Source: a virus. From it: a stretch of 64,000 bases of DNA. Shown here one piece after another: positions 2,113 to 63,988 of this stretch (its first letter is position 1; each line of letters opens with the position of its first letter). Below the pieces are notes generated by a model, which saw only the letters and a list, made by a program, of their open reading frames with translations, did no database searches and was not told the DNA's origin. A program made the translations under genes and the position numbers. The stretch spans positions 96,001-160,000 of IMG/VR virus record IMGVR_UViG_3300017991_000003. One strand, 5' to 3'.

Positions 2113-2163
2113 GTCCGGTCGGAGCGGGGGTTTATACTCCTAGCAGGCGTAGGAGCCGCTTCT

Positions 2164-2186
2164 CTGGCACTGGGTGCCAGTGCCAG
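2164..2186. repeat. palindromic element copy 1 (CTGGCACTGG-GTG-CCAGTGCCAG), perfect 10-bp arms
   Basis: read directly; lies 7 bp upstream of ATG 2193. Confidence 0.8.
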
Positions 2187-2192
2187 TAAACC

Positions 2193-21981: not shown

Positions 21982-23907
21982 ATGCGTCCGCGCGCTTGGC
22001 TTACACTTTTGGACGTGGCTACGATCAAGAACACCCCGCAGAGCGAGCTCATCGAGAGCCAGACCTGTCCCTCGGCTCTCCAGGAGCTTGTGGACCTAGT
22101 AGATACCCAGCTGGAGACCGTCCTAGGGCCGCTGGGGTTCGATCTAGAGATCATCTACGCGGAGATCAAGGGCAAGCAGGCGGGGGATCTCTGGGACGCG
22201 GTGGTGACGGGCCCTCTCGAGGCGGCAGGCTCGGCGGTGGAGGAGGCGTTCGGATACGACCCGACGTCCATCTCAGCTAGTAAGGCGGAGATCGAGAACG
22301 CGCTCACGGCCATCGTGGATCCGAACAACATCCTGGCGGCCCTCACCCCAATCAAGGAACTAGGCGGGGCGCTCCTGTCTACGGACAAGCTGGTAGAGGG
22401 GGATCTGAGCCCTACGGGGCTGATCAACCAGATCCTGGACCCGACCAAGGAGAAGCAGCTCGACGGTCTTACCGAGTGCAATGAGAACGTGGTCACGGCC
22501 ACGGCGGCAACGATCACTCAGGTTGTAGCCGGTGCGGCTAACGAGGTGCTCAAGAAGGTGGGGGCAGCTCAGTCGATCCTCAGCATGGGTATGTCGCAGC
22601 TGGAGAACTTCGGCGAAGGCCTCTTCCTGCTCGCGGGAGACGCGCTGAACACGGTTCACAACGCTGAGATCATTCTTATCGACCAGATCCTCGACGTCCT
22701 CGTTGAGATGCGAGCGCTGGTGGAGGAGATGGGGAACGAGCCCTTCGGTTTCAACCACTCCAAGGTGGTGCAGGCGGCTCAGACCAACCTGCTCCAGGCG
22801 GACTCCCTCCTGTCGGCGGTCCAGGCAAAGATCGAGACTCGAGCGGGGTTTGACGGCACCTCCTACGACGCGGCTCGATCGATCATCCAGTACGTAGAGG
22901 AGCTCTTGTGCGAGGCGTCAGATGAGTTCGATCTCGGCTTTAGCTCGAAGCCGTATCGACTCCTGTCCCTGGTCTTGACCCTCGAGGCCTACCAGGCTCT
23001 CTGGTATGCCCGGGCTCAGAAAGGGGAGAGCAGCGCGGAGGGGTTGATCAGCTTCCCTGGCAGCCTGCTGAGCCAGCTCCAGACGGATAACTTCTTCTCC
23101 CCGATCATCGCTCTGGTTCGTTGCCAGTTGAACAAGGTGATCCAGGACATGGCGGATACGGACATCCGCGGCGAGCTCCTGCTCTACATCACCAAGGAGA
23201 AGAAGTGGTGCCTCGAGCTCAAGGTCCTGAACGAGACGATGAAAGCCTCGCGCAGCCTTCTTGAGGCGGGAGATGAGGCAGCCGAGTTCTCGGATCTGAT
23301 CCTGGAGGGTGTGGAGACCTACGAGGATACCAAGAAGCTGGTTACAGCTACCGCAGCCGAAGCGCAGGAAAGCATCACAGATGTCCTCACCTACGCACGA
23401 CTCAAGGTCCAGAACCAGTTGACCCCCACTAACCGAGTGACCTCTCGAATCGACGAGGCGGTATCCATCCTCACGCTTCGACGCTCTCAGATCCAGGCGC
23501 AGAGCCAGGCGCTCCTCAGCCTGCTCGGCTTGGGTAACACTGATTTCCTGCAAGGGCTGGCCTACGCCAAGCAGTTCGCAGAGTTCCTATCAGGCAAAGG
23601 CCTGGACGCCATGCTAGGGAGCCTACTTGACGGGGACTTCGACGGTGTCTTCGGGGCTGACGCCTTGACAGCCTCGATAGGCGGCAAGGTAGAGGCCTAC
23701 GCCACCAAGGTCCTCGGCTGTCTAGACACCCAGGACCCAAGCGCGACTGACAAGCTATACACAGTAGCAAAGCAGGCCAACGACGATCTTCGGGCCCAGG
23801 ACGTGCTCGTCAATCTCATCGACGGCTCTGCTTCGCTGTTTGCTCAGGGGGCGCTACTTGAGGCGCAAGAGCGCAGCGTCGACCTGAGCACGATCGAGCT
23901 AAGCTGA
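21982..23907 (+). CDS. large hypothetical protein (641 aa), L/A/E/Q-rich, probably alpha-helical
   Basis: ORF track; ATG 21982; palindromic element overlaps its stop. Confidence 0.6.
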   Translation: MRPRAWLTLLDVATIKNTPQSELIESQTCPSALQELVDLVDTQLETVLGPLGFDLEIIYAEIKGKQAGDLWDAVVTGPLEAAGSAVEEAFGYDPTSISASKAEIENALTAIVDPNNILAALTPIKELGGALLSTDKLVEGDLSPTGLINQILDPTKEKQLDGLTECNENVVTATAATITQVVAGAANEVLKKVGAAQSILSMGMSQLENFGEGLFLLAGDALNTVHNAEIILIDQILDVLVEMRALVEEMGNEPFGFNHSKVVQAAQTNLLQADSLLSAVQAKIETRAGFDGTSYDAARSIIQYVEELLCEASDEFDLGFSSKPYRLLSLVLTLEAYQALWYARAQKGESSAEGLISFPGSLLSQLQTDNFFSPIIALVRCQLNKVIQDMADTDIRGELLLYITKEKKWCLELKVLNETMKASRSLLEAGDEAAEFSDLILEGVETYEDTKKLVTATAAEAQESITDVLTYARLKVQNQLTPTNRVTSRIDEAVSILTLRRSQIQAQSQALLSLLGLGNTDFLQGLAYAKQFAEFLSGKGLDAMLGSLLDGDFDGVFGADALTASIGGKVEAYATKVLGCLDTQDPSATDKLYTVAKQANDDLRAQDVLVNLIDGSASLFAQGALLEAQERSVDLSTIELS

Positions 23908-23926
23908 CACTGGGAGGGAGTGTCAG
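23904..23926. repeat. palindromic element copy 2 (CTGACACT-GGGAGGG-AGTGTCAG)
   Basis: overlaps stop codons of the convergent genes 21982-23907 and thyX. Confidence 0.8.
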
Positions 23927-24780
23927 TAAGGCTGCGTCTGCATGCCTGTGATCTCCAGAAGTCCGTCGACCTCTTCGGTCTGAGCATCGAACAAGAGGCC
24001 CGGGCACTGCTCCATCAGGATCTCGTAGACCTGGTTGAAGATCAGGCGGATTTCCCATTCGGCATGCCGGGAGGTGCGCATCATCAGCATGTGCCGCAGG
24101 GAGCGGACGTTAGCGGACCACCCCAGCTCGTTGGCTTGCCCGTTGGGAAGGACGCGTCGCAGGGCCGAGGTGACCTTCTTCTTGGTAGCGAAGTCCCGGA
24201 TCGGCTCGTCCGGTAGGGCTGATGGGTCTCCCCAGCTGCGGCGCGCTTCCTCGAGCTCGTCATCGGAGCAGACGCCCAAGCGGAGCCGCATCGCGTCGTA
24301 GTGGTCTGTGATGGCGTTGATGACTAGCTCTACTTCATCCATGACCGGAGCCAGGATAGGGTCGACGACGACGTCCAGCTGATCCGTGCGGACGTACCGA
24401 CCACTGGTTTGACTGAAGGCCGTGCCGGCGCGATGCCGAACCATCTCGTGGGTGAAGACGCGGGAGCAGTTCGTGGTTACGAAGTTGAAGGACACATGCT
24501 CGAAGACGCTGCCGTGTCCGTGCTCCAGGGTGGCTCGCACGTTGTCGGCGATGTCACGCGTGCGGCTGATGTTCTCGTTCTTGCCTGGGGTCAGGGCGCT
24601 GTAGCAGAGCTTGGCGTAGAAGCTCGAGATGATCTCCAGATCAGACAGCCCCTGCTGCCTCGCCTTGGCGATGTCAGCCAAGAAGGAGGATTGGTTCGTG
24701 GCTCGGAGATACCCGCTGACAGCGTGGAGGTCCAGCTGGGTGCATCCGATGAGGTGTGTGGTGGGTTCGACGATGGTCAT
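23923..24780 (-). CDS. thyX: flavin-dependent thymidylate synthase ThyX
   Basis: ThyX signature R-H-R-x7-S in HEMVRHRAGTAFSQTSGRY; internal ATG 24780 (MTIVEPT) preferred over ORF-track 24864. Confidence 0.8.
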   Translation of the reverse strand: MTIVEPTTHLIGCTQLDLHAVSGYLRATNQSSFLADIAKARQQGLSDLEIISSFYAKLCYSALTPGKNENISRTRDIADNVRATLEHGHGSVFEHVSFNFVTTNCSRVFTHEMVRHRAGTAFSQTSGRYVRTDQLDVVVDPILAPVMDEVELVINAITDHYDAMRLRLGVCSDDELEEARRSWGDPSALPDEPIRDFATKKKVTSALRRVLPNGQANELGWSANVRSLRHMLMMRTSRHAEWEIRLIFNQVYEILMEQCPGLLFDAQTEEVDGLLEITGMQTQPY

Positions 24781-24896: not shown

Positions 24897-24908
24897 GGTC
24901 ATGAGTCC
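24897..24908 (+). promoter_or_regulatory. promoter-like motif copy in plus orientation (GGTCATGAGTCC)
   Basis: same core CATGAGTCC on the coding strand, about 95 bp upstream of exonuclease ATG 25001. Confidence 0.4.
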
Positions 24909-30863: not shown

Positions 30864-30865
30864 AG

Positions 30866-30888
30866 CTGGCACTGGCTAGGAGTGTCAG
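30866..30888. repeat. palindromic element copy 3 (CTGGCACT-GGCTAGG-AGTGTCAG)
   Basis: sits between a plus-strand and a minus-strand hairpin terminator at a convergent junction. Confidence 0.8.
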
Positions 30889-30912
30889 TAAAAAGAGAGC
30901 CCCGAAGGGCTC
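30889..30912 (-). terminator. rho-independent terminator (minus strand)
   Basis: GAGCCC-CGAA-GGGCTC hairpin followed on minus strand by TCTTTTT. Confidence 0.6.
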
Positions 30913-30944: not shown

Positions 30945-31286
30945 CTACTGGTCTCGGCGCTTCTTGAGATCCTCGATCCAGCGGGAGACCGCTTCGATCA
31001 TCTCGTACGGCACGCCCTCGTGCCGAAGGATCGCCTCGGCATCGGCGATCTGCTGGTTGAGCTCCGGGCGGGCCAGCTCCGGTTCGGGCTCCGGCTCCGC
31101 CGTCTTCGCGGTGCTGGCGCCGCAGGCCGCGAGACCCATGACGGCCTCGCCGACCTTGGCGATCTCGCCCGCGAGCTCGACGACGTTCCCCTCGAGCTCC
31201 CAGCTCGAGGCGCTTTTGAGGACCTCGCGACCGTCATCGGTCAGGACGGTGAGGGTGTAGGCGGGGATGTTGATCGAGATTTTCAT
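30945..31286 (-). CDS. hypothetical protein (113 aa)
   Basis: internal ATG 31286 (MKISIN); own promoter-like motif, conserved leader hairpin and terminator. Confidence 0.5.
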   Translation of the reverse strand: MKISINIPAYTLTVLTDDGREVLKSASSWELEGNVVELAGEIAKVGEAVMGLAACGASTAKTAEPEPEPELARPELNQQIADAEAILRHEGVPYEMIEAVSRWIEDLKKRRDQ

Positions 31287-31305
31287 CTGGGTGGGTGGTG
31301 GTGAT

Positions 31306-31335
31306 GGTGTCTCCGGAGTAGACATCTCCGGATCA
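31306..31335 (-). promoter_or_regulatory. conserved 5' leader element with hairpin (stem TCCGGA/TCCGGA, loop GTAGACATC)
   Basis: aligns with the 46202 and 47869 copies; stem differs by a compensatory pair of substitutions. Confidence 0.55.
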
Positions 31336-31337
31336 CT

Positions 31338-31348
31338 AAACACATGCC
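31338..31348 (-). promoter_or_regulatory. promoter-like motif copy, variant (AAACACATGCC)
   Basis: 52 bp upstream of ATG 31286. Confidence 0.4.
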
Positions 31349-37003: not shown

Positions 37004-37090
37004 TGGTGCAGGAAGGGGGACTCGAACCCCCACGCCCGGGTGGGCACGTGGACCTAAACCACGGGCGTCTACCGATTCCGCCACTCCTGC
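37004..37090 (-). tRNA. tRNA-Leu (anticodon TAG)
   Basis: cloverleaf read by hand on minus strand: acceptor GCAGGAG/CTTCCTGC, anticodon loop TTTAGGT, long variable arm, T-arm GGGGGTTCGAGTCCCCC, encoded CCA. Confidence 0.8.
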
Positions 37091-37164: not shown

Positions 37165-37250
37165 TGGTGCGGGAGGAGGGACTCGAACCCTCACGCCCGA
37201 AGGCAGTGGATTTTGAATCCACCGTGTCTACCGATTCCAACCACCCCCGC
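37165..37250 (-). tRNA. tRNA-Leu (anticodon CAA)
   Basis: acceptor GCGGGGG/CTCCCGC, anticodon loop TTCAAAA, long variable arm, T-arm GAGGGTTCGAGTCCCTC, encoded CCA. Confidence 0.8.
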
Positions 37251-39541: not shown

Positions 39542-39543
39542 GT

Positions 39544-39566
39544 GTGGCACTGGCTAGGAGTGTCAG
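39544..39566. repeat. palindromic element copy 4 (gTGGCACT-GGCTAGG-AGTGTCAG)
   Basis: divergent region; immediately 5' of ATG 39541 (minus) and just upstream of a TTGACA hexamer preceding the GroES-like gene. Confidence 0.75.
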
Positions 39567-39625
39567 GGTGGGAAAACTGTCTCCATATCTTGACAGAGGG
39601 GCGCCGGCTAGGCACGATCCCTGGC

Positions 39626-44646: not shown

Positions 44647-44879
44647 GGCTGCTAAGTCGCGCCTACTGGGCGGAGGTCGTCGAGTGCGACTACTGCCCTA
44701 ATCCTGAAGAACCGCCCGCGCTTGTTTGTGGTGTCTGCGGCGATACGGGGAAAGCCCCGCGATGGCGTCGGGCTTGGCGCGATGTCTTCCGGTGTAGTGC
44801 TCTGGTGGGCCATCCTGATAGGAGCCCTGCTTGTGGGGGCGTTGGCTCAGTAAAAACAACGCGTTGTTTTGTCGGGTAG
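44643..44879 (+). CDS. questionable Cys-rich small ORF
   Basis: ORF track; reads through an AT-rich palindrome; may be non-coding. Confidence 0.2.
   Translation: MRLLSRAYWAEVVECDYCPNPEEPPALVCGVCGDTGKAPRWRRAWRDVFRCSALVGHPDRSPACGGVGSVKTTRCFVG
44853..44870. repeat. AT-rich perfect palindrome AAAACAACGCGTTGTTTT
   Basis: stands out in GC-rich context; convergent junction between the glycan island and the HTH operon. Confidence 0.7.
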
Positions 44880-44885
44880 GTAGCT

Positions 44886-44901
44886 AAAACAACGTGTTGT
44901 T
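44886..44901. repeat. AT-rich near-palindrome AAAACAACGTGTTGTT
   Basis: second copy 33 bp from the first. Confidence 0.65.
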
Positions 44902-44939
44902 AGGCACCCCAGCGCCCGAGGGCGCCGGGGGCCTGGTTC

Positions 44940-45197
44940 TCAGGGGCGGAGCCGCAGCCCCCGAGAGGTGACCAGCACCTTACGGTGCGGGACCTTGGGG
45001 AGCTTCGGCAGGGGCGGGAGGTCGACGTCGGTGTCGACGACCGCCTCCACCAGGGACTCGCCGTCCGCCCCGCTGATGTGGAGGCGGCGGTGCTCGCTGT
45101 TCTCGGTCACGTGGACCGAGCCCAGCGGGGTTTTGACCTTGGCGATGGTTCGCTCGGGGGCGATCCACGCCAAGATCTCGTCGAAGAACCCCATCAC
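44940..45197 (-). CDS. hypothetical protein (85 aa)
   Basis: ORF track; last gene of a 5-gene overlapping operon. Confidence 0.4.
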   Translation of the reverse strand: MMGFFDEILAWIAPERTIAKVKTPLGSVHVTENSEHRRLHISGADGESLVEAVVDTDVDLPPLPKLPKVPHRKVLVTSRGLRLRP

Positions 45198-45376
45198 TTG
45201 CAGAGCAGCGGGTTCTTCCCCCGCTGCTTGATGCGGCGCACCCTCGCGCGGAGGGTGTGCTCGATGGAGAGGGGCTGCCCGCGGAGGCGGGAGGTGACGG
45301 CGATGTCTAGGCCGCGCATGGGGGAGATCTTCCCCCGGCGGACCTTGAGCATCACCTGGCGACTGAGATTGCTCAT
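45194..45376 (-). CDS. hypothetical basic protein (60 aa)
   Basis: ORF track; overlapping start/stop. Confidence 0.4.
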   Translation of the reverse strand: MSNLSRQVMLKVRRGKISPMRGLDIAVTSRLRGQPLSIEHTLRARVRRIKQRGKNPLLCK

Positions 45377-45573
45377 GTGGTCAGGTGGTCGGCGAAGGCC
45401 CAGGTGACGGCCTCCGCGAAGTTGGGGGTGAGGGTGGCGTAGCCCGTCTCTACGTGGGAGACGTGGGACTGACTGAACCCGATACGCGCAGCGAACTGCG
45501 CTTGGGACAGGCCCAGCCCCTTCCTGATCCAGCGGACCAGGCGGGGGCTGAGCTCGACGGTGGTGGCGATCAC
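45373..45573 (-). CDS. XRE-family helix-turn-helix transcriptional regulator
   Basis: LGLSQAQFAARIGFSQSHVSHVETG HTH pattern. Confidence 0.6.
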   Translation of the reverse strand: MIATTVELSPRLVRWIRKGLGLSQAQFAARIGFSQSHVSHVETGYATLTPNFAEAVTWAFADHLTT

Positions 45574-45857
45574 GACGCCTCCTCCGCGTCCGCCCAGGCT
45601 CGGGCGATCTGACGCATGGGAGCCCTCTGGGAGAGGGGCCGGACGGTCACGAGAGTGATGAGACGCTTGTGGCCGATCGTGATGAGCGGCTGCTCGTAGC
45701 CGCCCCGCGAGGCGGCCTCACGCACCTTCTTTTTGAAGGTGGTGAGCTGCGGGCTGTGAGCAGGCAGGCCGATCAGGGATTGACCTACTTCCTCGAACAC
45801 CTCGCAGATGACCTCGGGCATGAGGGGCCGCAGCGGTTCTCGCATGGGGTTCTTCAT
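45570..45857 (-). CDS. hypothetical protein (95 aa)
   Basis: C-terminal protein-like part of a longer R-rich ORF; internal ATG 45857 in ATGA overlap. Confidence 0.4.
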   Translation of the reverse strand: MKNPMREPLRPLMPEVICEVFEEVGQSLIGLPAHSPQLTTFKKKVREAASRGGYEQPLITIGHKRLITLVTVRPLSQRAPMRQIARAWADAEEAS

Positions 45858-46198
45858 CGGATCTCGAACCCCAGCTTTTCGGCGAGTTCGACCGTGGCGG
45901 TGCGGCTCGTGTGGTGGCGGGAGAACGCCACCTCGCCGGTGGCGAGGTCCACGTACCAGCGGTTGCCGCCGCCAATGCCGTAGATCGTCACGTGACCGGA
46001 CTGGCCACGCATACGCAGGGCGTGGCCCCACGTGTATTGAGAGGACTCGGGGTCCTCGATGGAGTCCATCTGGCTCAGGAGCCAGGCGACCCCGTTTGCG
46101 TCGCGGCGCTCCTCGTCGTAGGTCGACGAGAAGCCCTCGACTTCTGCCATGTCGATGAGCGTCTCGGCGCTCATGATACGACCGGTCAGGGTGGTCAT
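45854..46198 (-). CDS. hypothetical protein (114 aa), first gene of operon
   Basis: ORF track; ATG 46198 directly abutting the conserved 42-bp leader cassette. Confidence 0.5.
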   Translation of the reverse strand: MTTLTGRIMSAETLIDMAEVEGFSSTYDEERRDANGVAWLLSQMDSIEDPESSQYTWGHALRMRGQSGHVTIYGIGGGNRWYVDLATGEVAFSRHHTSRTATVELAEKLGFEIR

Positions 46199-46201
46199 GG
46201 T

Positions 46202-46243
46202 GTTGGGTGGTGAGGGTGTCTCCGGGTAGACATCCCCGGATCA
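46202..46243 (-). promoter_or_regulatory. 42-bp leader cassette GTTGGGTGGTGAGGGTGTCTCCGGGTAGACATCCCCGGATCA with hairpin
   Basis: identical over 42 bp to 47869-47910; abuts start codon. Confidence 0.6.
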
Positions 46244-46245
46244 TT

Positions 46246-46256
46246 AGACTTATGCC
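46246..46256 (-). promoter_or_regulatory. promoter-like motif copy (AGACTTATGCC)
   Basis: 48 bp upstream of ATG 46198. Confidence 0.5.
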
Positions 46257-46357: not shown

Positions 46358-47062
46358 ATGCTGCTCAACAACTTCAGCGTCCGCGTGCCTGAGGGACGCG
46401 AGCACCACCAGTACGTGGAGCTCCAGCACGACACCAAGTACAGCCTCGTCCTCGCCAACAAGAACACCGAGGACTGCGACGCCCGGGTAGAGATCGATGG
46501 GCAGGCTGTTGGGACCTGGCGGATCAAGGCCAAGTCCACGGTCCGGCTCGAGAGGCCGGTTGACTCGGAGGGTAGGTTTACCTTCTACAAACAAGGCACC
46601 GAGGAGGCGAGCAAGGCTCAGCTCGAGGCAGTCGGCGAGGACAAGCTCGGCCTGGTCTGCGTGTGGTTCACCCCGGCTAAGCGACAGCAGGTACCGCAGT
46701 GGATCAGTACCCCGCAGTGGGGCAGTCACTACCCGTCGCCTACGCCCCCGCCGATCCCCTTGGATTACCAAGTCGACTGCAACACGATCCAGACGGCTTT
46801 CTTCTGCGCGAGCTCTGCGGATATGCCTTCGATGAGCCAGAAGAGCGTGGGCTCGATCACGCGAGAGGCGCGCCTTATGTCTTCAGGAGGCACGGGCCTC
46901 TCGGGTAAGAGCACACAGCAGTTCGTTGAGGCTCAAGAGCTCGACCTAGACATGGATCGACAGACCTTCATCGCCCTGCGCCTCGTGTGCGTGGAGAAGG
47001 AGGAGTCGGACATCCGTCCTCTGGTGCAGCGAGCCACCCCTGTACCGCCGCCCCTGAAGTGA
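46358..47062 (+). CDS. hypothetical protein (234 aa)
   Basis: ATG 46358 with AGGAGAAGAG upstream. Confidence 0.55.
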   Translation: MLLNNFSVRVPEGREHHQYVELQHDTKYSLVLANKNTEDCDARVEIDGQAVGTWRIKAKSTVRLERPVDSEGRFTFYKQGTEEASKAQLEAVGEDKLGLVCVWFTPAKRQQVPQWISTPQWGSHYPSPTPPPIPLDYQVDCNTIQTAFFCASSADMPSMSQKSVGSITREARLMSSGGTGLSGKSTQQFVEAQELDLDMDRQTFIALRLVCVEKEESDIRPLVQRATPVPPPLK

Positions 47063-47076
47063 GGCAAAAAAGAAGG

Positions 47077-47099
47077 CTGGCACTGGCTCCCAGTGTCAG
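47077..47099. repeat. palindromic element copy 5 (CTGGCACTGG-CTC-CCAGTGTCAG); likely also a bidirectional terminator
   Basis: flanked by AAAAAAGAAGG upstream and TCTTCTTCT downstream at a convergent junction. Confidence 0.75.
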
Positions 47100-47114
47100 T
47101 CTTCTTCTCGCGGC

Positions 47115-47483
47115 TCACTCGGAGACGGCTCCAGCGGCTCGCATGGCCAGCGAGTGCAGGTAGTCGTACCGGTCCTTGAAGACATCGAAGGCCACAGTGC
47201 GGAGCTCGGCCTGGACCCAGGTGGCGTACTCGACCGGCGGTTCTTTCTGGATCAGCTCTTCAACGATCTCCCGAGGGAGGTAGGCGATGATCCAGTTCAT
47301 GTCGTCCACGCGTCCCCCAGATCCCGGAGGTCCGAAGCCCAGCTGGTGCACAGCGTACTGAGCGCTTTCGATGAAGTCCTCGGGAACGTCGAAGTCGTCT
47401 CGCCGGCCAGCAGCGAGCACCATGGCGGCCCAAGCCGCGTGGATACCTTGCCGGTACCCGCGCAGGTATTCGTCTTTAGTCAT
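47115..47483 (-). CDS. hypothetical protein (122 aa)
   Basis: ORF track. Confidence 0.5.
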   Translation of the reverse strand: MTKDEYLRGYRQGIHAAWAAMVLAAGRRDDFDVPEDFIESAQYAVHQLGFGPPGSGGRVDDMNWIIAYLPREIVEELIQKEPPVEYATWVQAELRTVAFDVFKDRYDYLHSLAMRAAGAVSE

Positions 47484-47868
47484 GGTTAGGAGGGGTTTGG
47501 CAGGTCTGGTAGATGCGGGCCATCTGGTCGAGCGCCGTCAACCGGATGGTGATGATCTTGCGGGCCACGTTTGCGACGGTCGCGCCACTGCCCTGCCGCA
47601 TCGACAGCTTGTGCGGCCGGGTCTGAAGGAGCTCAACGAGGTCCGTGTGAGCGAGGCGCTCGCGGAGGTCGGTGACGTACTCCGTGAGGAAGCCCTGAAG
47701 CTCCCCCGGCGGGTTGGCGGTCAGGACTGCCTTGGCCCTCGTGGGCGCGGTCCCGTCGAGCTGGCTCTGGAGGCGATCCCCGAAGGGAATCTGGGAGACC
47801 AGCTCGGCCCAGAGCCAGTCCCGGGCCAGGACCGCTGCCTGGCTGTAGATCTTGTCGGCGTGCTTCAT
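47476..47868 (-). CDS. hypothetical protein (130 aa), first gene of operon
   Basis: ATG 47868 abutting the conserved 42-bp leader cassette. Confidence 0.5.
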   Translation of the reverse strand: MKHADKIYSQAAVLARDWLWAELVSQIPFGDRLQSQLDGTAPTRAKAVLTANPPGELQGFLTEYVTDLRERLAHTDLVELLQTRPHKLSMRQGSGATVANVARKIITIRLTALDQMARIYQTCQTPPNHD

Positions 47869-47910
47869 GTTGGGTGGTGAGGGTGTCTCCGGGTAGACAT
47901 CCCCGGATCA
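47869..47910 (-). promoter_or_regulatory. 42-bp leader cassette, second identical copy
   Basis: identical to 46202-46243. Confidence 0.6.
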
Positions 47911-47912
47911 AA

Positions 47913-47923
47913 GGACTCATGAC
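47913..47923 (-). promoter_or_regulatory. promoter-like motif copy (GGACTCATGAC)
   Basis: 45 bp upstream of ATG 47868. Confidence 0.5.
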
Positions 47924-49805: not shown

Positions 49806-52800
49806 ATGGCTGAGTTCAAGGACTGCCAGAGCCCGAGCCCCCTGACCGGGCGGATCGGCCCCGATCTGATCGAAGAGGTTGGCGGGGTCTCTCTGGCAGG
49901 TGTGTTGGCAGGCACGGAGACGCTGCCGGTTGGTGCAATCCCTGTCACAGCCCCGCTTTATGACAGTCCGAGCCCTACAGGTACGGCTATTGGACTGCGG
50001 TTGGATTCGAGCCTGACGGTTGATGCCCAGGGCCGGCTCAGTATTGCTGGAGCCCCATCGCCCGCGGCCCACGCCTCGAGCCACGAGCCTGGCGGGTCTG
50101 ATCCGATCACCCCTGCTGCCTTTGACGGGCTTATCACCCCGCCGGTCGCCACGACGGTTGTCCTTGGCGGTGTCAAGGACGGTGACGGCGTCTCGATCGC
50201 CGGTGACGGCACCCTGACCCTCGATCTGGCCGCCGCCAGTGGCCTCGAGATCAGCGGCGGGACCCTGAGACTGGCACTGGGTACCGGTGTCAGCTTCAGC
50301 GGCAACGATCTGGTCCTGGACGAGGCCACGGACTCCACGCTGGGCGGCATCATCGCCGGCACGGGTCTATCAGTCAGCTCGGGTACGGCGAGCCTCAACG
50401 CCCCCCAAGTCACGGGAGCCTCCCTAGCGGGCAGCACTCTGGTCTGGGATACCAGCCCGAGTGCCCAGAGTCCCAGCCCTGCTCTGAGGCTTCCGGCGAG
50501 CTTCACGTACACCAAGGCGATCCCGCAGTCGCAGCTGCCGACCGCGGCCTACGGCAGCCCGGGCAGCTCGAGCCCCAGCCCGCAGCTCGGCCTTGTCCGC
50601 ATCTATGGCCCGAGCGAGGGCCTGACGCTTAGCGATGGGCTCCTGTCGCTGGCGACTCCGATCAGCACGGATCACCTACCCACCGCTACTGGTCTAGGTG
50701 GGCGAGGCATCGTCCGCGCGGGCCTACTTGACGGTACGGGCGTCTACGTCTCCAACAGTACGACCGGCCAGCTGGCGATCCTGATTGACGCCACGTCGGA
50801 CACGTTGGCGTTGTCGTCGAGCGGGATCAAGGTCAAGTCCAATCGCTTCCTGGCGCTGACTGGCACCGGTAACCTCCCCAGCCCCGCGGCGAGCCCGAGC
50901 CCGGGGACTGACGGCTGGATGACCGGGTCGGTTCGATTCACCAACGACCTGGGTGAGCCTGCGATCCGCACCGGTAACCAGCGGATCCGCTACGAGTTCG
51001 GGGCCAGCCCGTCTCCCGGGGCGATCCTGGCATCGGCTGATCTAAGCGATCTACTAACGTACCAGGAGATCAGCACACTCATCTCCCAGGCTGAGCTTGG
51101 TGTCGAGGTTTGGACTCCTGGGCGACCTGTGCAGGCAGAGCCGGGTACGAGCCTAGGTGCGTTGGCGGAGCTCTCGGCCGGGGATCGGTTCCTTACGAGC
51201 ACGTCGTCCAACACCAACCCCGGCGGTGACTGGAATGCGCACAACTGCGTGTTCGCGGTCTGGACGGAAACGGCTCCCGATACCTTTACCTGGGTCTATG
51301 AGACCCCCACGGTCAACACCTGGTTCACAGACGACGTAACTGGGGACACGTGGGCTGTTGTTGTCGGCTCCCCCTCCCCGAAGTCGCCCTCACCGAACCC
51401 GTCGCGAGAGGCTTTCCGGTATCGCGCTCGTCAAGATGACACAGCATCGACGGCCCGAGCTGGTCGCGTGCGTGTCCCGACGACCAGTGGCCTCGTCATG
51501 GACGGCGAGGATATTCGGCTATCCCTCGCCTCGGACATCGGGGTCAGTACGGGCCTGCGTCTGATCACCCGAGCTCGCAACAACGCGCTAGCTCTCGATC
51601 TCAGCCGGTCCCAAGGGATCTTGGAGCTCAACTCCGACGGGCGCCTTCAGGTTGCCGCGTCCTCGATCCAGGCCACGGAGATCGCGGACAACACCATCGT
51701 CCTCGACAACCTGGCCGCGGATCAGGTGACAGGCGGTACCAAAGACTTCATCGCCACGCAGTACGACGGGCTATCCGTCCGGCTGGTGGGGGACTCGGAA
51801 GACTTCCGCGTCACTGGGGCGCCTGTCAGCACGGCTACGACCATTCTGATCCACACCGAGGACGGTATCGGTGTGGCGGAGGAGTCGATCAACACTGACG
51901 CTCTCTCGGACGAGGCGGTTAGCTACAGCAAACTCCTGATGCCCACGGCCTCCGGTCTGGAGGACAACGGGCAGGACAAGGTCCGGGTCAAGCTCCAGAC
52001 CCGCAGCGGCCTCGAGCGAACGGTGGATGGCCTGGCGGTCAACATCCATGACGTGGTGGACGATGCCACGATTGAGCTCGACACATCCACGGGCGGCTTG
52101 CGCGTCAAGACAGGTAGCCTGACGTCGTCGTACTTCGCGTCGGGCCTGGCGATCTCGGCCTCGGTCCTCACGCTGGGAGCCCCTATGCTCTCGTCGAGCG
52201 GGCTCCTGACCTTCTGCTACCAGAGCCCTCTGGTCCTGACCGGCAGCCCCGGCTGCTTGACGATCGGCGAAGGCTTGATCAGCTCGCCGTATCTCGGCAC
52301 CGGGTCGGTCAGCTACGCCAAGCTCAAGCTGGCGAGCCCCTCCGGCATCACGCAGACGGCCGGCGGTATCAAGGTCGACATCTCGACGGGTCTCGCCTTC
52401 AGCGGCAACCAGATCGTGGTCGACCAGGTGCCGGCAGACGCGATGGCACTGGATGCGGATTCGGCGTTGTACGCCGCTAGCCCGACCAGTCCGCTGACGC
52501 AGCTGGAGCTGAGCATCCGGGTCAGCAGCCCGTTCACGCAGACGGGTGGTACGCTGGATCTAGCGGACGAGGGTGTTCAGGTGAGTCACCTGGATCGCTC
52601 CAAGCTGCGCGGTAGCTTCCTGGCCAGCGGCCTCGAGGCCGGCCTAGGTACCCAGACCAGTCCCTTCGACTCTTGGGTCACGAGCCCGGCGTTCTACACC
52701 GGCTCGGACGCCCCGGGTATGCGGGTGGCTACGCGGACGCGATCCGATCACGACTACCTGGATGCGGCGGGTCAGGGACAAGGCACGTTCGAGCCCTATA

Positions 52801-60372: not shown

Positions 60373-60761
60373 GGCTTGTCCTCCGGTGCGGGTGTAGGTG
60401 GGGCGGGGATGGGGAGGTAGCCGACGTACCAGGAGTCGTCCGCGTTGAAGTACTCTCCGTAGCGACAGGTAGATGTCCATTCGGTTCCGTCCCACCGGGC
60501 GACAACACAGGCCAGGGAGTCGCGCTCGCATAGCAAGACCTCGCGCCCGTCCCGAGGCGCACTCTCCATGTCCCGCCACTCGGTAGCCTCGGCAAGCTGG
60601 CGGCGGGCCTCGCGCCACATCTTCATCGCGGCCCTCCGGCGCTCTTGGTCGTGCTGGGCGTCGGCCTCCAGGTCGGCCACTAGGGCCAGGAGGGCACCGC
60701 GGCGCCCCGTGAACATGGTGGCCTTGGCCAGCAGCGCCCGCGCCTCGTCGAGCCTACTCAT
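60369..60761 (-). CDS. hypothetical protein (130 aa)
   Basis: ATG 60761 (8-nt overlap) preferred over ORF-track 60806. Confidence 0.45.
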   Translation of the reverse strand: MSRLDEARALLAKATMFTGRRGALLALVADLEADAQHDQERRRAAMKMWREARRQLAEATEWRDMESAPRDGREVLLCERDSLACVVARWDGTEWTSTCRYGEYFNADDSWYVGYLPIPAPPTPAPEDKP

Positions 60762-61413
60762 CGCTTCCTCCCAGGCCAGCGGCCCGTGCGGCGGCGCGGG
60801 CTTCAAAGAGACTGTTGTAGTGGATGTGGGGTTCGTCGAGCCACCGCTCGACCTTGCCGAACAGCTCCTCCCCCGCCGCGACCTTGGCCCTCAGGGCGGC
60901 CCAGGCTTCACGCGGGTTGGCGTTGGGGCACAGGTCTTCGTGCATCACGGAGTCGCAGCCGTCCAAGCAGTCAGGCCCCTCGTTGATGATGGCGGTCAGC
61001 CGTTCGACCTCGGCGCGGGTTTCGGCAAGCTGCGCGGAGGCTTTGACCGCTTCGTCCCAGCCGCGCTCGGGCTCGGTGTGGGCGAGGGCGGCGTCGATGT
61101 CGTCGATCCTCCCGGTGTCGTCGTCGCAGAAGTCGCACTCGTAGAACTTGGCGAGGAGCCAGCGAACGTCCTCCTCTAGCACCCGGACGCGCTCGGCCAG
61201 GGCGTCGCGATCGCGCCAGAGCCCGGCCAGAGCCTCATTGGAGATCGGGGACTCGACGACCCGCTCGCGCTCGGTGGATTCGCGGGCGATAGCGTCTCGG
61301 AGGGCCCGGCGATCCGACGCCATCTCGGGCGAGTCCTCGTCGTAGTTGATCGCGGTGCAGATCAGGTTGTCGATGCACTCCTCGACGCTCGGGGTGGAGT
61401 GATTAGTGGTCAT
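60754..61413 (-). CDS. coiled-coil Cys-rich protein, paralogue family member
   Basis: internal ATG 61413 (MTTNHSTPSVEE) with GGAG upstream; shares N-terminal motif and ALAHTEPE block with 61403-62377. Confidence 0.5.
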   Translation of the reverse strand: MTTNHSTPSVEECIDNLICTAINYDEDSPEMASDRRALRDAIARESTERERVVESPISNEALAGLWRDRDALAERVRVLEEDVRWLLAKFYECDFCDDDTGRIDDIDAALAHTEPERGWDEAVKASAQLAETRAEVERLTAIINEGPDCLDGCDSVMHEDLCPNANPREAWAALRAKVAAGEELFGKVERWLDEPHIHYNSLFEARAAARAAGLGGSDE

Positions 61414-62377
61414 TTTGAATCTCCGGGGCGGTGTGGTCAGTACAGAAACGGCTACCCTCAATGGTGTCGGCGTTGCACCGGGGCTCCCCGATAGGGTGGA
61501 CGGGACACTTGCCCGGGGCGGCGGGCTCGGTGCGGGCGGCCTCCTCGTCGAGGCGCTCCTCGTCGTCCACGAACTTGCACGACGGGCAGAACGGGCCGGG
61601 GTGGTTATGCCCGGCGGTGAACGGACCAACCGTGTCGTCGCAGGACACGCAAGTCAGGGGCCCATCCGGGGCGGCGGGGCGGTTATCCCACCATGCAGCA
61701 CCTTTCGGGTTGCCGTGGCCGCACCCATCCTCCGAGGAGCCGCACTCCTCACAGAAGGTGTCGCCCGGCAGCGGCTGATCATGCAGGTCGCACGGCCCCG
61801 CCTCGAACGGTAGGCGTTTGAAGCGGGTGGCGTTCACCGCCTCGATGGCTCGCTCGGACCACGGGTTGACCTCGGGCTCGGTGCGGGCCAGGGCGGTGTC
61901 GAGGCGTTCCCAGAAGTCCCCAGGCGCGGGGCGGGAAAAGTAGCTCATCTTGGGCGACCGGGAGTGCTGTTTCATCTCGGCACCAAGCGCCTCCAGCGCC
62001 CGGATCCGCTCGGCCAGGGCGTTGCGCTCGGCTTCGAGTTCCCGCTCGCGCTCGGCGGACTCGACGCGGAGTTTGACGTACCCAGCGCCCACCTCTTCGA
62101 GCTTGCGTTGGAGGTCGGCCTCGCGTTCGGCGGACTCCTCGACCTGTACGGCCATGACCTTCACGCAGTCGTTCACGTTGTCGTGCGGGCAGTCGCCGGT
62201 CGCGCAGCCGTGCCATTGGGGCTCGCGCTCGGCGGGCTCGCGGCCAGCACGGATCAGGCGGGCGGCATTGTGGTAGTTAGCCTGGTCCTCCGTGTTGCCT
62301 TGTAGGCGCGACTCCTCCTCTCGGAGCGCCAGGAACTCCAGCGTCCACTCGAGGCTCGGGGTGGGGTGGTTACTCAT
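61403..62377 (-). CDS. coiled-coil protein with multiple Cys clusters, paralogue family member
   Basis: internal ATG 62377 (MSNHPTPSLEW); ALARTEPE block; several CxxC pairs; N-terminal part of ORF-track frame is R-rich and rejected. Confidence 0.5.
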   Translation of the reverse strand: MSNHPTPSLEWTLEFLALREEESRLQGNTEDQANYHNAARLIRAGREPAEREPQWHGCATGDCPHDNVNDCVKVMAVQVEESAEREADLQRKLEEVGAGYVKLRVESAERERELEAERNALAERIRALEALGAEMKQHSRSPKMSYFSRPAPGDFWERLDTALARTEPEVNPWSERAIEAVNATRFKRLPFEAGPCDLHDQPLPGDTFCEECGSSEDGCGHGNPKGAAWWDNRPAAPDGPLTCVSCDDTVGPFTAGHNHPGPFCPSCKFVDDEERLDEEAARTEPAAPGKCPVHPIGEPRCNADTIEGSRFCTDHTAPEIQNDH

Positions 62378-62534
62378 CGGTCTGCTCCGGTGTGTAGGGG
62401 TTGTCGGTCGGGTCCTGGCCGAAGGCGTGGTTCCACCCCAAAGCGTACGCCTCGGCCTTCGCGGCCTGGATCGCGGCGTAGAGGGCGGACTCGGCGGCGT
62501 CGCGGTCCCGCATCCTCCAAGGGCGTGGGTCCAT
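62370..62534 (-). CDS. small hypothetical protein (start ambiguous)
   Basis: ATG 62534 or GTG 62600; only the C-terminal part of the ORF-track frame looks protein-like. Confidence 0.3.
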   Translation of the reverse strand: MDPRPWRMRDRDAAESALYAAIQAAKAEAYALGWNHAFGQDPTDNPYTPEQTDE

Positions 62535-62592
62535 GCAATACTGCGACTGCGCCGAGATGGCCTGGCGGACCTCCTTCTCGCACGGTCGGGGG

Positions 62593-62916
62593 CTATCCAC
62601 GGGCGGCCTCCTGCGCGGCCCGACGGACCGCATCCAGCTCCTTCTTCCTGGTTGCCGCCCAGTCCTTCGCTTTGAAGTAGGCGGACTCGGCCACGCGCAG
62701 CGCCCGGTCCCACGCCTCGGCCTCCGTCGGACACCAATCCTCGATCGAGACCGTGGTGAGGTGCTCGGTGGCGCGGCACCGCTCCACGCGGATCTGCTTC
62801 GCGGTCCGCTTGAGGACGGGGACGACGAAGCACTTGGGTGTCGGGTCGTTGTAGCTCGCGGACCGCACAACGTAGTGGAACTCTTCGTCTTGGTTCGGGG
62901 TCGGTTGGTCACTCAT
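62593..62916 (-). CDS. hypothetical protein (107 aa), N-terminal motif family member
   Basis: internal ATG 62916 (MSDQPTPNQDEE); start region AGACCGATGAGT shared with 62377. Confidence 0.45.
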   Translation of the reverse strand: MSDQPTPNQDEEFHYVVRSASYNDPTPKCFVVPVLKRTAKQIRVERCRATEHLTTVSIEDWCPTEAEAWDRALRVAESAYFKAKDWAATRKKELDAVRRAAQEAARG

Positions 62917-62953
62917 CGGTCTTGTCCTCCTTGGGGTCGAGCCAGGGGGCGGC

Positions 62954-63819: not shown

Positions 63820-63842
63820 CTGGCACTGGTACCTAGTGTCAG
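63820..63842. repeat. palindromic element copy 6 (CTGGCACT-GGTACCT-AGTGTCAG)
   Basis: overlaps stop of the HTH gene 63839-63988 and abuts the promoter-like motif of the next gene. Confidence 0.8.
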
Positions 63843-63988
63843 CCTTCGTACAGCTTCTGGACCGATGTCCCCAGCGCCTTGGCGATCTTGCTCATGGTCG
63901 GCCACTTAGGGATGAAGCGGCTGTGCTCGGCAGCGTTGATGTACTGACGCTCTTTACCTACACGTCGACCCAGCTCAGCTTGGCTCAT
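63839..63988 (-). CDS. XRE-family (Cro/CI-type) helix-turn-helix regulator (49 aa; may extend beyond window edge)
   Basis: hand-translated MSQAELGRRVGKERQYINAAEHSRFIPKWPTMSKIAKALGTSVQKLYEG; classic HTH_XRE pattern; not in ORF track. Confidence 0.55.
   Translation of the reverse strand: MSQAELGRRVGKERQYINAAEHSRFIPKWPTMSKIAKALGTSVQKLYEG

What the first reader, a model, noticed from the sequence alone, without database searches (positions are those of the whole stretch)
44940..46198. Five-gene overlapping operon of small proteins with an embedded XRE-family HTH regulator
Genes of 114, 95, 66 (HTH), 60 and 85 aa are linked by 4-nt overlaps and driven by the duplicated promoter-leader cassette. 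Small unknown proteins co-transcribed with an HTH regulator resemble the layout of anti-defence (anti-CRISPR/Aca-like) or host-takeover loci. Function is unknown and this is only an analogy.
Basis: inference. Interest (0 to 1): 0.5.

Follow-up and report, generated by a model that had tools for sequence, protein, structure and literature searches.

The report
Accessory small-gene operon in phage island
Five small overlapping genes, one of them a DNA-binding regulator, form a real operon inside a fast-changing accessory-gene island of a new ~190-kb uncultured phage; this is a familiar kind of phage locus and its function remains unproven.

Summary
Five minus-strand ORFs (114, 95, 66, 60 and 84/85 aa) all look coding (third-position GC 0.83-0.94). 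Their junctions are ATGA, GTGA, ATGA and TGATG/GTGA. Gene 3 is an XRE-type HTH.

The "duplicated promoter-leader cassette" is real, but it is one copy of a promoter-like motif (TGKCATRAGTCYNNTGA). About a dozen candidate copies lie in the window, nearly all on the minus strand.

The window comes from an uncultured 175-193 kb phage. In three related phage lineages both flanks are syntenic (46-82% aa identity), but the interval holding this operon varies from 1 to 8 genes. Only g2 and g5 have homologues there, sitting in separate cassettes without any HTH. g1, g3 and g4 have no relatives in any database searched.

Two near-identical strains differ by a 411-bp g2-type cassette flanked by a perfect 129-bp terminator-promoter repeat. 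This resembles the PeSL mobile regulatory cassettes of T4-type phages.

The best reading is an accreted, translationally coupled accessory (probably early) operon with a Cro-sized regulator. The anti-defence/Aca analogy fits the context but passed no membership test. Structure prediction failed (pLDDT 43 and 59).

The parts
46241..46254 (-). Promoter-like motif CATAAGTCTAATGA, preceded by GG. It is one candidate copy of the motif class TGKCATRAGTCYNNTGA.
   Evidence: About a dozen candidate copies with 0-2 mismatches lie in the window, nearly all on the minus strand. The motif recurs upstream of minus-strand genes in related phages (L085, L086, L091, L097). No sigma-70 -35/-10 consensus is present.
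46221..46240 (-). Inverted repeat / 5' hairpin TCCGGG-GATGTCTA-CCCGGA, directly after the promoter motif.
   Evidence: The same CCGGG-N8-CCCGG stems sit at the same place in cassette B, in cassette C (with a compensatory G:C to A:T change), and in L086, L097 and L095 with different loops.
46199..46220 (-). C/A-rich leader (GACACCCTCACCACCCAACACC) with no Shine-Dalgarno sequence, running up to the g1 ATG.
   Evidence: It is predicted to be unstructured. Similar CA-rich leaders follow other copies of the promoter.
45854..46198 (-). g1, 114 aa, acidic (pI 5.0), no relatives found.
   Evidence: GC3 0.87. It finds only itself among 5.8 billion proteins. No hit in IMG/VR, the phage genome collection or PDB sequences. 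Pfam gives only DUF6882 at E 0.028, below threshold. The AF2 model has pLDDT 43.
45570..45857 (-). g2, 95 aa, basic (pI 9.7), a small family confined to this phage group. ATGA overlap with g1.
   Evidence: An exhaustive HMMER search of 1.84 billion representatives finds only P0007 (85 aa, 56% identity) and a repeat artefact. The homologue in L086 (52% identity, E 1.5e-26) is a stand-alone cassette gene. A distant paralogue sits in L085. The model is four helices at pLDDT 59 with no fold match.
45373..45573 (-). g3, 66 aa, XRE/Cro-type helix-turn-helix regulator. GTG start, GTGA overlap with g2, own strong SD (GGAGGAGG).
   Evidence: HTH_3 at 4.7e-10 and HTH_31 at 4.3e-09. PHROGs transcriptional regulators. 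Nearest solved structures are phage Cro, 434 repressor, HigA, HipB and C.AhdI. The word-indexed 5.8-billion-protein search finds no close homologue.
45194..45376 (-). g4, 60 aa, extremely basic (pI 12.0, +13.6 net charge), probably binds nucleic acid. ATGA overlap with g3, no SD.
   Evidence: No hit in Pfam, PHROGs, NCBIfam, PADLOC, PDB sequences or phage genomes.
44940..45197 (-). g5, 84 aa from the ATG at 45194 (favoured) or 85 aa from the GTG at 45197. A family shared with a related phage.
   Evidence: 33% identical to a 90-aa protein in L085/L086 (pairwise E 4e-13; tblastn E 7.7e-10). There it is the first gene of its own cassette, ATGA-coupled to a g2 paralogue.
44850..44934 (-). 3' end of the operon: a GC-rich hairpin (44934-44902), then a 16-bp AU-rich hairpin formed by the two palindromes AAACAACGTGTTGTTA and AAACAACGCGTTGTTT (44901-44855), then a U run.
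   Evidence: RNA fold -47.6 kcal/mol, z = -6.4, with 0 of 200 shuffles folding as well. The palindromes occur only here in the window and not in the relatives' loci.
47868..47921 (-). Twin promoter-leader cassette B, heading the neighbouring two-gene operon B1 (47476-47868) and B2 (47115-47483).
   Evidence: 93% identical to cassette A (sequence). B1 is the weakly conserved positional resident of the island in all four lineages.
31293..31346 (-). Diverged third cassette C, heading a single 113-aa gene (30945-31286). An upstream terminator directly precedes it, making a composite terminator-promoter.
46358..47062 (+). p234, a divergently transcribed 234-aa gene with no relatives found, lying between operons A and B inside the same variable interval.
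   Evidence: GC3 0.81. No family hits. No homologue in the relatives' loci.

Best explanation
This is an accreted operon of accessory genes, probably early, in a hyperplastic island of a previously unseen large phage (contigs 175-193 kb, about 62% GC).

Expression, inferred from anatomy. The operon is transcribed as one mRNA from one copy of a phage-wide promoter class, TGKCATRAGTCYNNTGA. This looks like an extended -10 with no -35. The likely start lies at or just after the conserved TGA. The transcript would begin with a short GC hairpin / inverted repeat, continue through a CA-rich leader without a Shine-Dalgarno sequence, and end at a GC hairpin followed by a long AU-rich hairpin with a U run.

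Translation. It is coupled through overlapping stop/start codons. g2, g4 and g5 have no usable SD and would depend on re-initiation. The HTH gene g3 has its own strong SD (GGAGGAGG), so the regulator can be made independently of upstream translation.

Function, inferred. g3 is a Cro-sized XRE dimer that most likely sets the level or timing of transcription of this locus. g4 (pI 12) is probably a second nucleic-acid binder. g1 (acidic), g2 and g5 are soluble cytoplasmic effectors of unknown target, most plausibly acting on host-phage interaction.

Evolution, shown by comparison. The five genes are not an indivisible system. The g2 and g5 families occur in related phages as independent cassettes. 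g1, g3 and g4 are additions specific to this lineage. Cassettes are gained or lost by homologous recombination between composite terminator-promoter-hairpin repeats, as with the PeSLs of T4-type phages.
For: - Real genes and coupling.
- HTH.
- Phage identity of the contig: ThyX, an SbcD-like exonuclease, a sigma factor, an HD hydrolase, GroES, methyltransferases and DUF5661; two tRNAs; contigs of 174,660 and 193,018 bp.
- Promoter class: about a dozen candidate copies, strand-biased, also present in relatives. No sigma-70 consensus. Ten minus-strand genes tested, from units several of which are headed by the motif, have no Pfam hit.
- Terminator.
- Hypervariable island between conserved flanks: flanks are 46-76% identical to the L085/L086 and L091 phages and up to 82% to L096/L097. 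The interval holds 1 gene (L091), 3 (L085), 4 (L086), 1 plus a methylase fragment (L097), and 8 in this window.
- g2 homologue as a stand-alone cassette and g5 homologue heading its own unit.
- g1 and g3 have no homologue in 5.8 billion proteins.
- A 411-bp presence/absence polymorphism flanked by a perfect 129-bp repeat separates two otherwise 99.98-100% identical strains.
- PeSL precedent: PMC2839356 and PMC4122927.
Against: - No function is shown for any of the five proteins.
- The temporal class (early) is inferred only from gene content and promoter sharing.
- The promoter has no experimental support, and no transcription start is known.
- Only one genome carries this exact operon. All public copies are 100% identical over the stretch compared, so there is no within-operon comparative or selection evidence for g1, g3 or g4.
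- A general 5' hairpin after this promoter class is not statistically supported: mean MFE -7.4 against -7.0 kcal/mol for background, p = 0.14.
- Recombination between cassettes is shown in a related phage, not in the window itself.
Confidence: 0.6

Rival explanations
1. An anti-defence operon of the Acr-Aca type. One or more of g1, g2, g4 and g5 inhibit a host defence system. g3 is the Aca-like autorepressor. It binds the inverted repeat TCCGGG-N8-CCCGGA as DNA and/or as the 5'-UTR RNA hairpin, and so also controls the neighbouring operons B and C, which carry the same element.
For: - Small proteins without known relatives plus an HTH in one operon.
- Location in a hypervariable island whose cargo in one relative includes a DNA methylase remnant.
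- The same inverted repeat sits just after the promoter motif in three units of the window.
- Aca proteins are reported to bind promoter inverted repeats and 5'-UTR RNA motifs, and to co-regulate adjacent operons (PMC13551039).
Against: - g3 shows only generic XRE similarity, and no Aca appears among the solved-structure matches.
- No small protein matches any known family.
- The inverted repeat is conserved in L086, L097 and L095, where no g3 homologue was found, so it does not need g3.
- g3 is the third of five genes, not the last.
- g2 and g5 homologues are expressed in relatives without an HTH.
Confidence: 0.17
2. A phage-internal regulatory module. g3 (Cro-like) and the very basic g4 control the phage's own gene timing, for example by binding the two AT-rich palindromes (half-sites ACAA..TTGT) at the convergent junction with the plus-strand glycosyltransferase/methyltransferase operon. 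The other three genes are passengers.
For: - The nearest solved relatives of g3 are phage Cro and 434 repressor.
- The two 16-bp palindromes lie 33 bp apart, are unique in the window, and are absent from relatives' loci, where no g3 homologue was found.
- g3 has its own strong SD.
- g4 has pI 12.
Against: - The palindromes are explained more simply as the two arms of an intrinsic terminator hairpin followed by a U run.
- The related phages already carry a different, conserved 66-68 aa HTH elsewhere. The window has it too, cut by the window end at 63842-63988. g3 is therefore an extra regulator, not the core one.
- No binding data exist.
Confidence: 0.13
3. A toxin-antitoxin or abortive-infection/superinfection-exclusion module, with g3 as an XRE-type antitoxin (HigA, HipB or MqsA-like).
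For: The best NCBIfam matches of g3 are antitoxin families: Y4mF/HipB-like at 7.7e-08 and MqsA at 4.1e-06. HigA and HipB appear among its PDB matches.
Against: - All these matches are far below the family cut-offs (32 bits against 71.65, and 26.6 against 61.8).
- No toxin domain is found in any neighbour.
- At 66 aa, g3 has no room for an antitoxin's toxin-binding domain.
Confidence: 0.05

Closest known systems
PeSL (promoter-early stem-loop) mobile regulatory cassettes and hyperplastic regions of T4-type phages (Arbiol et al. 2010, PMC2839356; Comeau et al. 2014, PMC4122927)
   Same: - Variable genes without known relatives are clustered between conserved core blocks.
- Each unit is bounded by a composite terminator + promoter + stem-loop repeat.
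- Close relatives differ by indels whose ends lie in these repeats. Here L085 and L086 differ by 411 bp flanked by a perfect 129-bp repeat.
   Different: - The phage lineage is unrelated: no match to 50,697 phage genomes for the 1262-aa anchor protein or the operon region.
- The genome is GC-rich.
- The promoter motif is not the E. coli sigma-70 early consensus.
- A subset of cassettes carries a sequence-conserved inverted repeat, CCGGG-N8-CCCGG.
- Recombination is shown in a sister phage, not for this operon itself.
acr-aca operons (anti-CRISPR genes with an HTH autorepressor; PMC6765145, PMC9410906, PMC13551039)
   Same: - Small unknown proteins and a small HTH share one operon behind a promoter that looks strong.
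- An inverted repeat lies at the transcript start.
- The same element sits on neighbouring operons.
   Different: - No sequence membership in any Aca or Acr family that could be tested.
- The HTH is internal, the third of five genes.
- The inverted repeat is conserved in relatives where no g3 homologue was found.
- There is no functional evidence.
Cro / 434-repressor-type XRE regulators and R-M controller (C) proteins
   Same: g3 is a stand-alone 66-aa HTH_3 domain. Its best solved matches are phage Cro, 434 repressor and C.AhdI.
   Different: - No lysogeny module or restriction-modification genes lie next to it.
- Its operator is unknown.

Membership tests
XRE-family HTH (Pfam HTH_3 / HTH_31) | Score above the Pfam gathering threshold for the HTH_3 or HTH_31 domain | tested here: met
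   g3 scores 39.8 bits on HTH_3 (cut-off 23) and 37 bits on HTH_31 (cut-off 27).
acr-aca operon | An HTH (or RHH) regulator encoded in the same operon as small effector genes | tested here: met
   g3 overlaps g2 and g4 by 4 nt within one transcription unit.
acr-aca operon | The regulator belongs to a described Aca family | tested here: not met
   Only generic XRE hits were found. No Aca protein is among the 30 best solved-structure matches. Caveat: no dedicated Aca profile library was available.
acr-aca operon | At least one operon member is a known or demonstrable anti-defence protein | tested here: not met
   g1, g2, g4 and g5 have no significant match in Pfam, PHROGs, NCBIfam, PADLOC or PDB sequences. 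g1, g4 and g5 have none in phage genomes. g2 has none in 1.84 billion representatives beyond its own small family. Activity cannot be tested here.
acr-aca operon | The regulator binds an inverted repeat in its own promoter or 5' UTR and represses it | not testable with these tools
   An inverted repeat exists at 46221-46240. The same repeat is conserved in phages where no g3 homologue was found, which argues against g3 specificity. Binding needs an experiment.
PeSL-type mobile regulatory cassette / hyperplastic region | Variable genes clustered between conserved core gene blocks | tested here: met
   The flanks are syntenic at 46-82% aa identity in three further lineages. Interval content varies from 1 to 8 genes.
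PeSL-type mobile regulatory cassette / hyperplastic region | Repeated composite terminator + promoter + stem-loop sequences flanking the variable ORFs | tested here: met
   Cassettes A, B and C in the window. A 129-bp terminator-promoter-IR repeat in L086.
PeSL-type mobile regulatory cassette / hyperplastic region | Indels between close relatives with end points in the repeats | tested here: met
   L085 and L086 are identical except for a 411-bp g2-type cassette flanked by the 129-bp repeat. This is shown in a sister phage. No close strain of the window phage exists to test it directly.
PeSL-type mobile regulatory cassette / hyperplastic region | T4-type phage with a sigma-70 early promoter consensus in the cassette | tested here: not met
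   There is no sigma-70 -35/-10 match and no similarity to any phage in the collection. It therefore works like a PeSL but is not a member of the T4 family of elements.
Type II toxin-antitoxin with XRE antitoxin | The antitoxin family model is passed and a toxin domain lies in an adjacent gene | tested here: not met
   TIGR03070 gives 32.2 bits against a cut-off of 71.65. MqsA gives 26.6 against 61.8. No toxin family is found in g1, g2, g4 or g5.

The most novel reading that the evidence does not exclude
The variable interval is an anti-defence hot spot of a new clade of large phages. g3 would be a new Aca-like regulator that acts on the shared CCGGG-N8-CCCGG element (as DNA operator and/or 5'-UTR RNA hairpin) and co-regulates three operons. 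At least one of g1, g2, g4 and g5 would be a new family of defence inhibitor. The g2/g5 pair is the best candidate, because it recurs in a sister lineage.
Probability: 0.15. Interest if true: 0.6.

Novelty: new member of a known kind. Interest (0 to 1): 0.33.

Why it matters
If the reading is right, the operon itself is ordinary: accessory phage genes plus a small regulator. The surrounding picture is useful for three reasons.

- A previously undescribed clade of ~190-kb GC-rich phages uses a non-canonical promoter motif, strongly biased to one strand, for its small genes of unknown function.
- These phages shuffle such genes as self-contained terminator-promoter cassettes. This mechanism has so far been documented mainly in T4-type phages.
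- The variable interval gives a short, well-delimited list of candidate host-interaction genes to test once a host is found: g1, g2, g4, g5, B1, B2 and p234. It also gives a candidate regulatory inverted repeat that is conserved across four of the five lineages examined.

Tried and rejected
1. **Homology, all negative.**
   - Near-identity DNA search of the region, and a protein search with the 1262-aa neighbour, against 50,697 phage genomes.
   - g1 and g2 against IMG/VR.
   - g1 and g3 in the word-indexed 5.8-billion-protein search: each found only itself.
   - g1, g4 and g5 by tblastn against phage genomes.
   - Pfam, PHROGs, NCBIfam and PADLOC.
   - PDB sequences.
2. **Exhaustive HMMER for g2.** It found one true homologue and one artefact from a tandem-repeat protein.
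3. **Structure prediction.** g1 gave pLDDT 43, which is unusable. g2 gave pLDDT 59, and its Foldseek search against the PDB had no hit below E = 1. My guess from the sequence pattern that g2 is Phd/YefM-like is not supported, because the model is all-helical.
4. **Leader uORF idea.** The hairpin loop ATG opens a 12-codon (A) or 11-codon (B) uORF that ends in ATGA on the g1/B1 start. I rejected it as a conserved feature: in cassette C a 1-nt insertion changes the frame, and the relatives have loops without an ATG.
5. **General 5' hairpin after every promoter copy.** Not significant against background.
6. **Cassette scans.** The cassette sequence was not found in viral or metagenome contigs.
7. 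**DUF5661 anchor.** It returned 80 unrelated phages that share only a 70-aa domain, so it was useless for synteny.
8. **Rfam.** Only the two tRNAs.
9. **Paralogy.** No paralogy among the cassette-driven proteins or elsewhere in the window.
Full report
**1. Observation**

The five ORFs exist exactly as described, on the minus strand:

| Gene | Coordinates | Length | Start |
|---|---|---|---|
| g1 | 46198-45854 | 114 aa | ATG |
| g2 | 45857-45570 | 95 aa | ATG |
| g3 | 45573-45373 | 66 aa | GTG |
| g4 | 45376-45194 | 60 aa | ATG |
| g5 | 45197-44940 | 85 aa | GTG |

- Third-position GC is 0.83-0.94 and second-position GC is 0.43-0.52 in every one.
- The frame of highest GC3 switches at each junction.
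- Overlapping alternative ORFs lack this signature.
- The gene calls attached to the public contigs are the same five genes.
- Junctions 1 to 3 are ATGA, GTGA and ATGA.
- At junction 4 the ATG one codon downstream (84 aa, TGATG, 1-nt overlap) is more likely than the GTG. The homologue in a related phage aligns from that Met, and the public gene call uses it.
- Only g3 has a good Shine-Dalgarno sequence, GGAGGAGG ending 5 nt before the GTG start. g1, g4 and g5 have none and g2's is weak. Translation of most of the operon therefore probably relies on coupling. This is an inference.

**2. Source of the window**

- The window is part of an uncultured element. It was assembled three times from what appears to be one sample, because all copies are 100% identical over the 6-kb stretch compared.
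- The public records are ENA ERZ27256773 (174,660 bp), a 38-kb JGI 3300018080 contig and a Logan SRR6963352 fragment. The longest contig is 193,018 bp.
- It is a phage. The window encodes ThyX, an SbcD-like exonuclease, a sigma factor, an HD hydrolase, GroES, methyltransferases, a PolB-type exonuclease and a DUF5661 protein whose N-terminal domain is widespread in IMG/VR. It also carries two tRNA-Leu genes.
- No match was found in a collection of 50,697 phage genomes, using the operon-region DNA or the 1262-aa neighbour as a protein query.

**3. The promoter-leader cassette**

- The two near-identical copies, 46201-46254 and 47868-47921, and a diverged third copy, 31293-31346, are real.
- They belong to a larger class. 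The motif TGKCATRAGTCYNNTGA has about a dozen candidate copies with 0-2 mismatches in the window: 63800, 47921, 46254, 40783, 39091, 36398, 31346, 21977, 19430, 12405, 10310 and 478 on the minus strand, plus 24900 on the plus strand. Some are weak: the copy at 24900 has no ORF downstream, and 40783 and 39091 lie inside called ORFs.
- Most copies sit 30-70 nt upstream of a minus-strand ORF. The motif recurs in the same position in related phages.
- There is no sigma-70 -35/-10 consensus.
- The motif reads like an extended -10 (TGn + CATRAG), with the conserved TGA about 7 nt downstream at the likely start site. This is an inference.
- Ten minus-strand genes tested, from units several of which are headed by the motif, have no Pfam hit. 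That fits an early, ORFan-rich class but does not prove it.

**4. The inverted repeat after the promoter**

- In cassettes A, B and C the motif is followed at once by the inverted repeat TCCGGG-N8-CCCGGA. Copy C carries a compensatory G:C to A:T change.
- The same stems, at the same distance from the motif, occur in four of the five lineages examined. The loops differ: GATGTCTA, AGCGTATA, AACTGTGC and AACTGTAC.
- Conserved stems with free loops point to a sequence-specific element: a protein-bound DNA repeat, or an RNA hairpin recognised by sequence.
- The element is present in phages where no g3 homologue was found, so it does not depend on g3.
- A general tendency of all promoter copies to be followed by a hairpin is not significant.
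- The ATG in the hairpin loop opens a tiny uORF ending ATGA on the g1 and B1 start codons. It is not conserved in copy C or in the relatives, so I do not rely on it.

**5. The 3' end**

- After the g5 stop codon, the minus-strand RNA folds into a GC hairpin (44934-44902).
- A 16-bp AU-rich hairpin follows, made by pairing the two AT-rich palindromes (44901-44855), and then a U run.
- The fold is -47.6 kcal/mol with z = -6.4.
- The "palindromic elements" are therefore most simply an intrinsic terminator.
- They are unique to this phage. Each is itself a perfect or near-perfect 16-bp palindrome with ACAA..TTGT half-sites. A second role as a binding site for g3 cannot be excluded.

**6. The proteins**

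- **g3** is a stand-alone XRE HTH. Its closest solved relatives are phage Cro, 434 repressor, HigA, HipB and C.AhdI, all at weak E-values, and no Aca is among them. Its antitoxin-family scores are far below the cut-offs.
- **g1** (pI 5.0), **g2** (9.7), **g4** (12.0, +13.6 charge) and **g5** (8.2) are soluble and have no transmembrane segment.
- None of those four matches any family in Pfam, PHROGs, NCBIfam, PADLOC or PDB sequences, and g1, g4 and g5 match no phage genome.
- g1 and g3 find only themselves among 5.8 billion proteins.
- An exhaustive HMMER search with g2 finds one real homologue.
- Structure prediction without usable alignments failed: g1 pLDDT 43; g2 pLDDT 59, four helices, no Foldseek hit.

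**7. Comparative genomics: the decisive evidence**

The neighbouring 1262-aa protein has relatives at 56-61% identity. The very conserved 134-aa protein next to the island brought in more. In three further lineages the flanks are syntenic at 46-82% aa identity. On one side lie sulfotransferase, two methyltransferases and two GT25 genes (one lineage lacks some of the transferases). On the other lie an ~80-aa gene, the 134-aa gene, DUF5661, the 1262-aa gene and genes of ~180 and ~340 aa.

The interval between the flanks differs completely:

| Phage | Content of the variable interval |
|---|---|
| L091 | one minus-strand gene |
| L085 | three |
| L086 | four |
| L096/L097 | one gene plus a C-terminal fragment of a C5 DNA methylase (PF00145, E 4.7e-13) |
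| This window | eight (g1-g5, p234, B2, B1) |

- Only B1 is a weak positional orthologue everywhere.
- g5 has a 33%-identical homologue in L085/L086 (E 4e-13). There it heads its own cassette and is ATGA-coupled to a distant g2 paralogue.
- g2 has a 52%-identical homologue in L086 that forms a complete stand-alone unit with its own terminator, promoter and hairpin.
- L085 and L086 are otherwise 99.98-100% identical. They differ by exactly this 411-bp unit, which is flanked by a perfect 129-bp direct repeat of the terminator-promoter-IR composite.
- g1, g3, g4, p234 and B2 have no homologue in any relative's locus.

**8. Interpretation**

- The five genes are one expression unit, but they are not an indivisible system. 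The operon is an accretion of accessory genes in a hyperplastic island.
- The regulatory cassettes also serve as recombination substrates. This is the behaviour described for PeSLs in T4-type phages (PMC2839356, PMC4122927).
- This phage is not T4-like and its promoter is not the sigma-70 early consensus. It therefore works like a PeSL system without belonging to that family.
- g3 is most likely a small Cro-like or autoregulatory repressor of this locus, and g4 a second nucleic-acid binder. The targets of g1, g2 and g5 are unknown. The recurrence of g2- and g5-family genes together in two lineages hints that they work as a pair.

**9. The anti-defence/Aca analogy**

- It fits the context: a variable island, a methylase remnant in a relative, and an inverted repeat shared by three operons. 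Published Aca proteins bind promoter inverted repeats and 5'-UTR RNA and co-regulate adjacent operons (PMC13551039).
- No membership feature that could be tested was met beyond "HTH in the same operon". The inverted repeat is also present where no g3 homologue was found.
- I give it about 0.15-0.2.
- A phage-internal Cro-like role gets about 0.13.
- A toxin-antitoxin role gets about 0.05.

**10. Verdict**

- The locus is a new member of a known kind: an accessory, probably early, gene operon with an XRE regulator in a hyperplastic region.
- Interest is modest. The main value lies in the promoter class, the conserved inverted repeat and the cassette-shuffling evidence in a new phage clade.

Noticed in passing
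window minus strand 63800, 47921, 46254, 40783, 39091, 36398, 31346, 21977, 19430, 12405, 10310, 478; plus strand 24900: A strongly strand-biased promoter-like motif, TGKCATRAGTCYNNTGA, heads most minus-strand units. It is usually followed by a CA-rich leader with no Shine-Dalgarno sequence (for example ...CACCCACAACCACC-ATG). It is conserved in at least three related phage lineages. Which polymerase or sigma factor reads it is unknown; the window itself encodes a sigma factor.
   Followed up: partly
window 2163-2187, 23903-23927, 30865-30889, 39543-39567, 47076-47100, 50270-50294: A family of six stem-loops, CTGGCACTGG...CCAGTGTCAG. At least the copies at 30865 and 47076 are followed by T runs and sit at gene ends, so they look like a shared intrinsic-terminator family. 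The same type forms part of the 129-bp repeat in L086.
   Followed up: partly
L086 7060-7188 and 7471-7599 (compared with L085): A perfect 129-bp direct repeat (terminator + promoter + inverted repeat) flanks a 411-bp presence/absence polymorphism that carries a g2-family gene. The two strains are otherwise identical. This is direct evidence of cassette gain or loss by recombination.
   Followed up: yes
L097 about 8575-8880, plus strand (also L096): A C-terminal fragment of a C5 cytosine DNA methylase (PF00145, profile positions 257-323 of 324, E 4.7e-13). It has no N-terminal catalytic part and sits in the same variable interval of a related phage. It looks like a decayed anti-restriction gene.
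   Followed up: partly
window 63842-63988, minus strand (cut by the window end): A homologue (55-65% identity) of a 66-68 aa HTH_31 protein that is conserved at the head of another minus-strand region in the related phages. This is probably the clade's core small regulator, which makes g3 an additional one.
   Followed up: partly
L085 21242 onward (also L086, L087, L089): The related phages encode a giant ORF of 3449 aa just beyond the region equivalent to the window's end. That is the size of the virion RNA polymerase of N4-like phages. Only the N-terminal part was in hand and it was not analysed.
   Followed up: no
L098 (CAZCPY010000001.1, 189,901 bp): A distant relative of the conserved 134-aa protein (43% identity) lies on a 190-kb contig binned as an uncultured Rhodobacterales MAG. 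It is either a host clue or a phage genome placed in the wrong bin.
   Followed up: no
window 44782-44853, plus strand: A possible 23-codon hydrophobic mini-ORF (MSSGVVLWWAILIGALLVGALAQ) lies in the otherwise non-coding 290-nt spacer between the GT25 gene and g5, ending just before the AT-rich palindromes. It has no SD and the coding signal is weak. The related phages have only a 45-60 nt spacer here.
   Followed up: no
window 46232-46195 and 47899-47865, minus strand: The ATG in the loop of the leader hairpin opens a 12-codon (A) or 11-codon (B) uORF whose TGA overlaps the g1 or B1 start codon as ATGA. A 3-nt indel between A and B preserves this arrangement. It is not conserved in cassette C or in the related phages.
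   Followed up: yes
window 37004-37090 and 37165-37250, minus strand: Two adjacent tRNA-Leu genes, with anticodons TAG and CAA.
   Followed up: no
window 61066-62927: Several direct-repeat families (61066/61520/61871, 61173/61990, 61253/62034, 62353/62892) lie about 450-820 bp apart within the minus-strand ORFs of 60754-62833. They suggest tandemly duplicated gene segments.
   Followed up: no
whole window (rough gene list): By eye from the list, minus-strand genes have higher third-position GC than plus-strand genes: roughly 0.83 against 0.78, an estimate that was not formally computed. g3, g4 and g5 (0.91-0.95) are among the highest in the window. This could reflect recent acquisition from a GC-richer source or a different expression class.
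   Followed up: no
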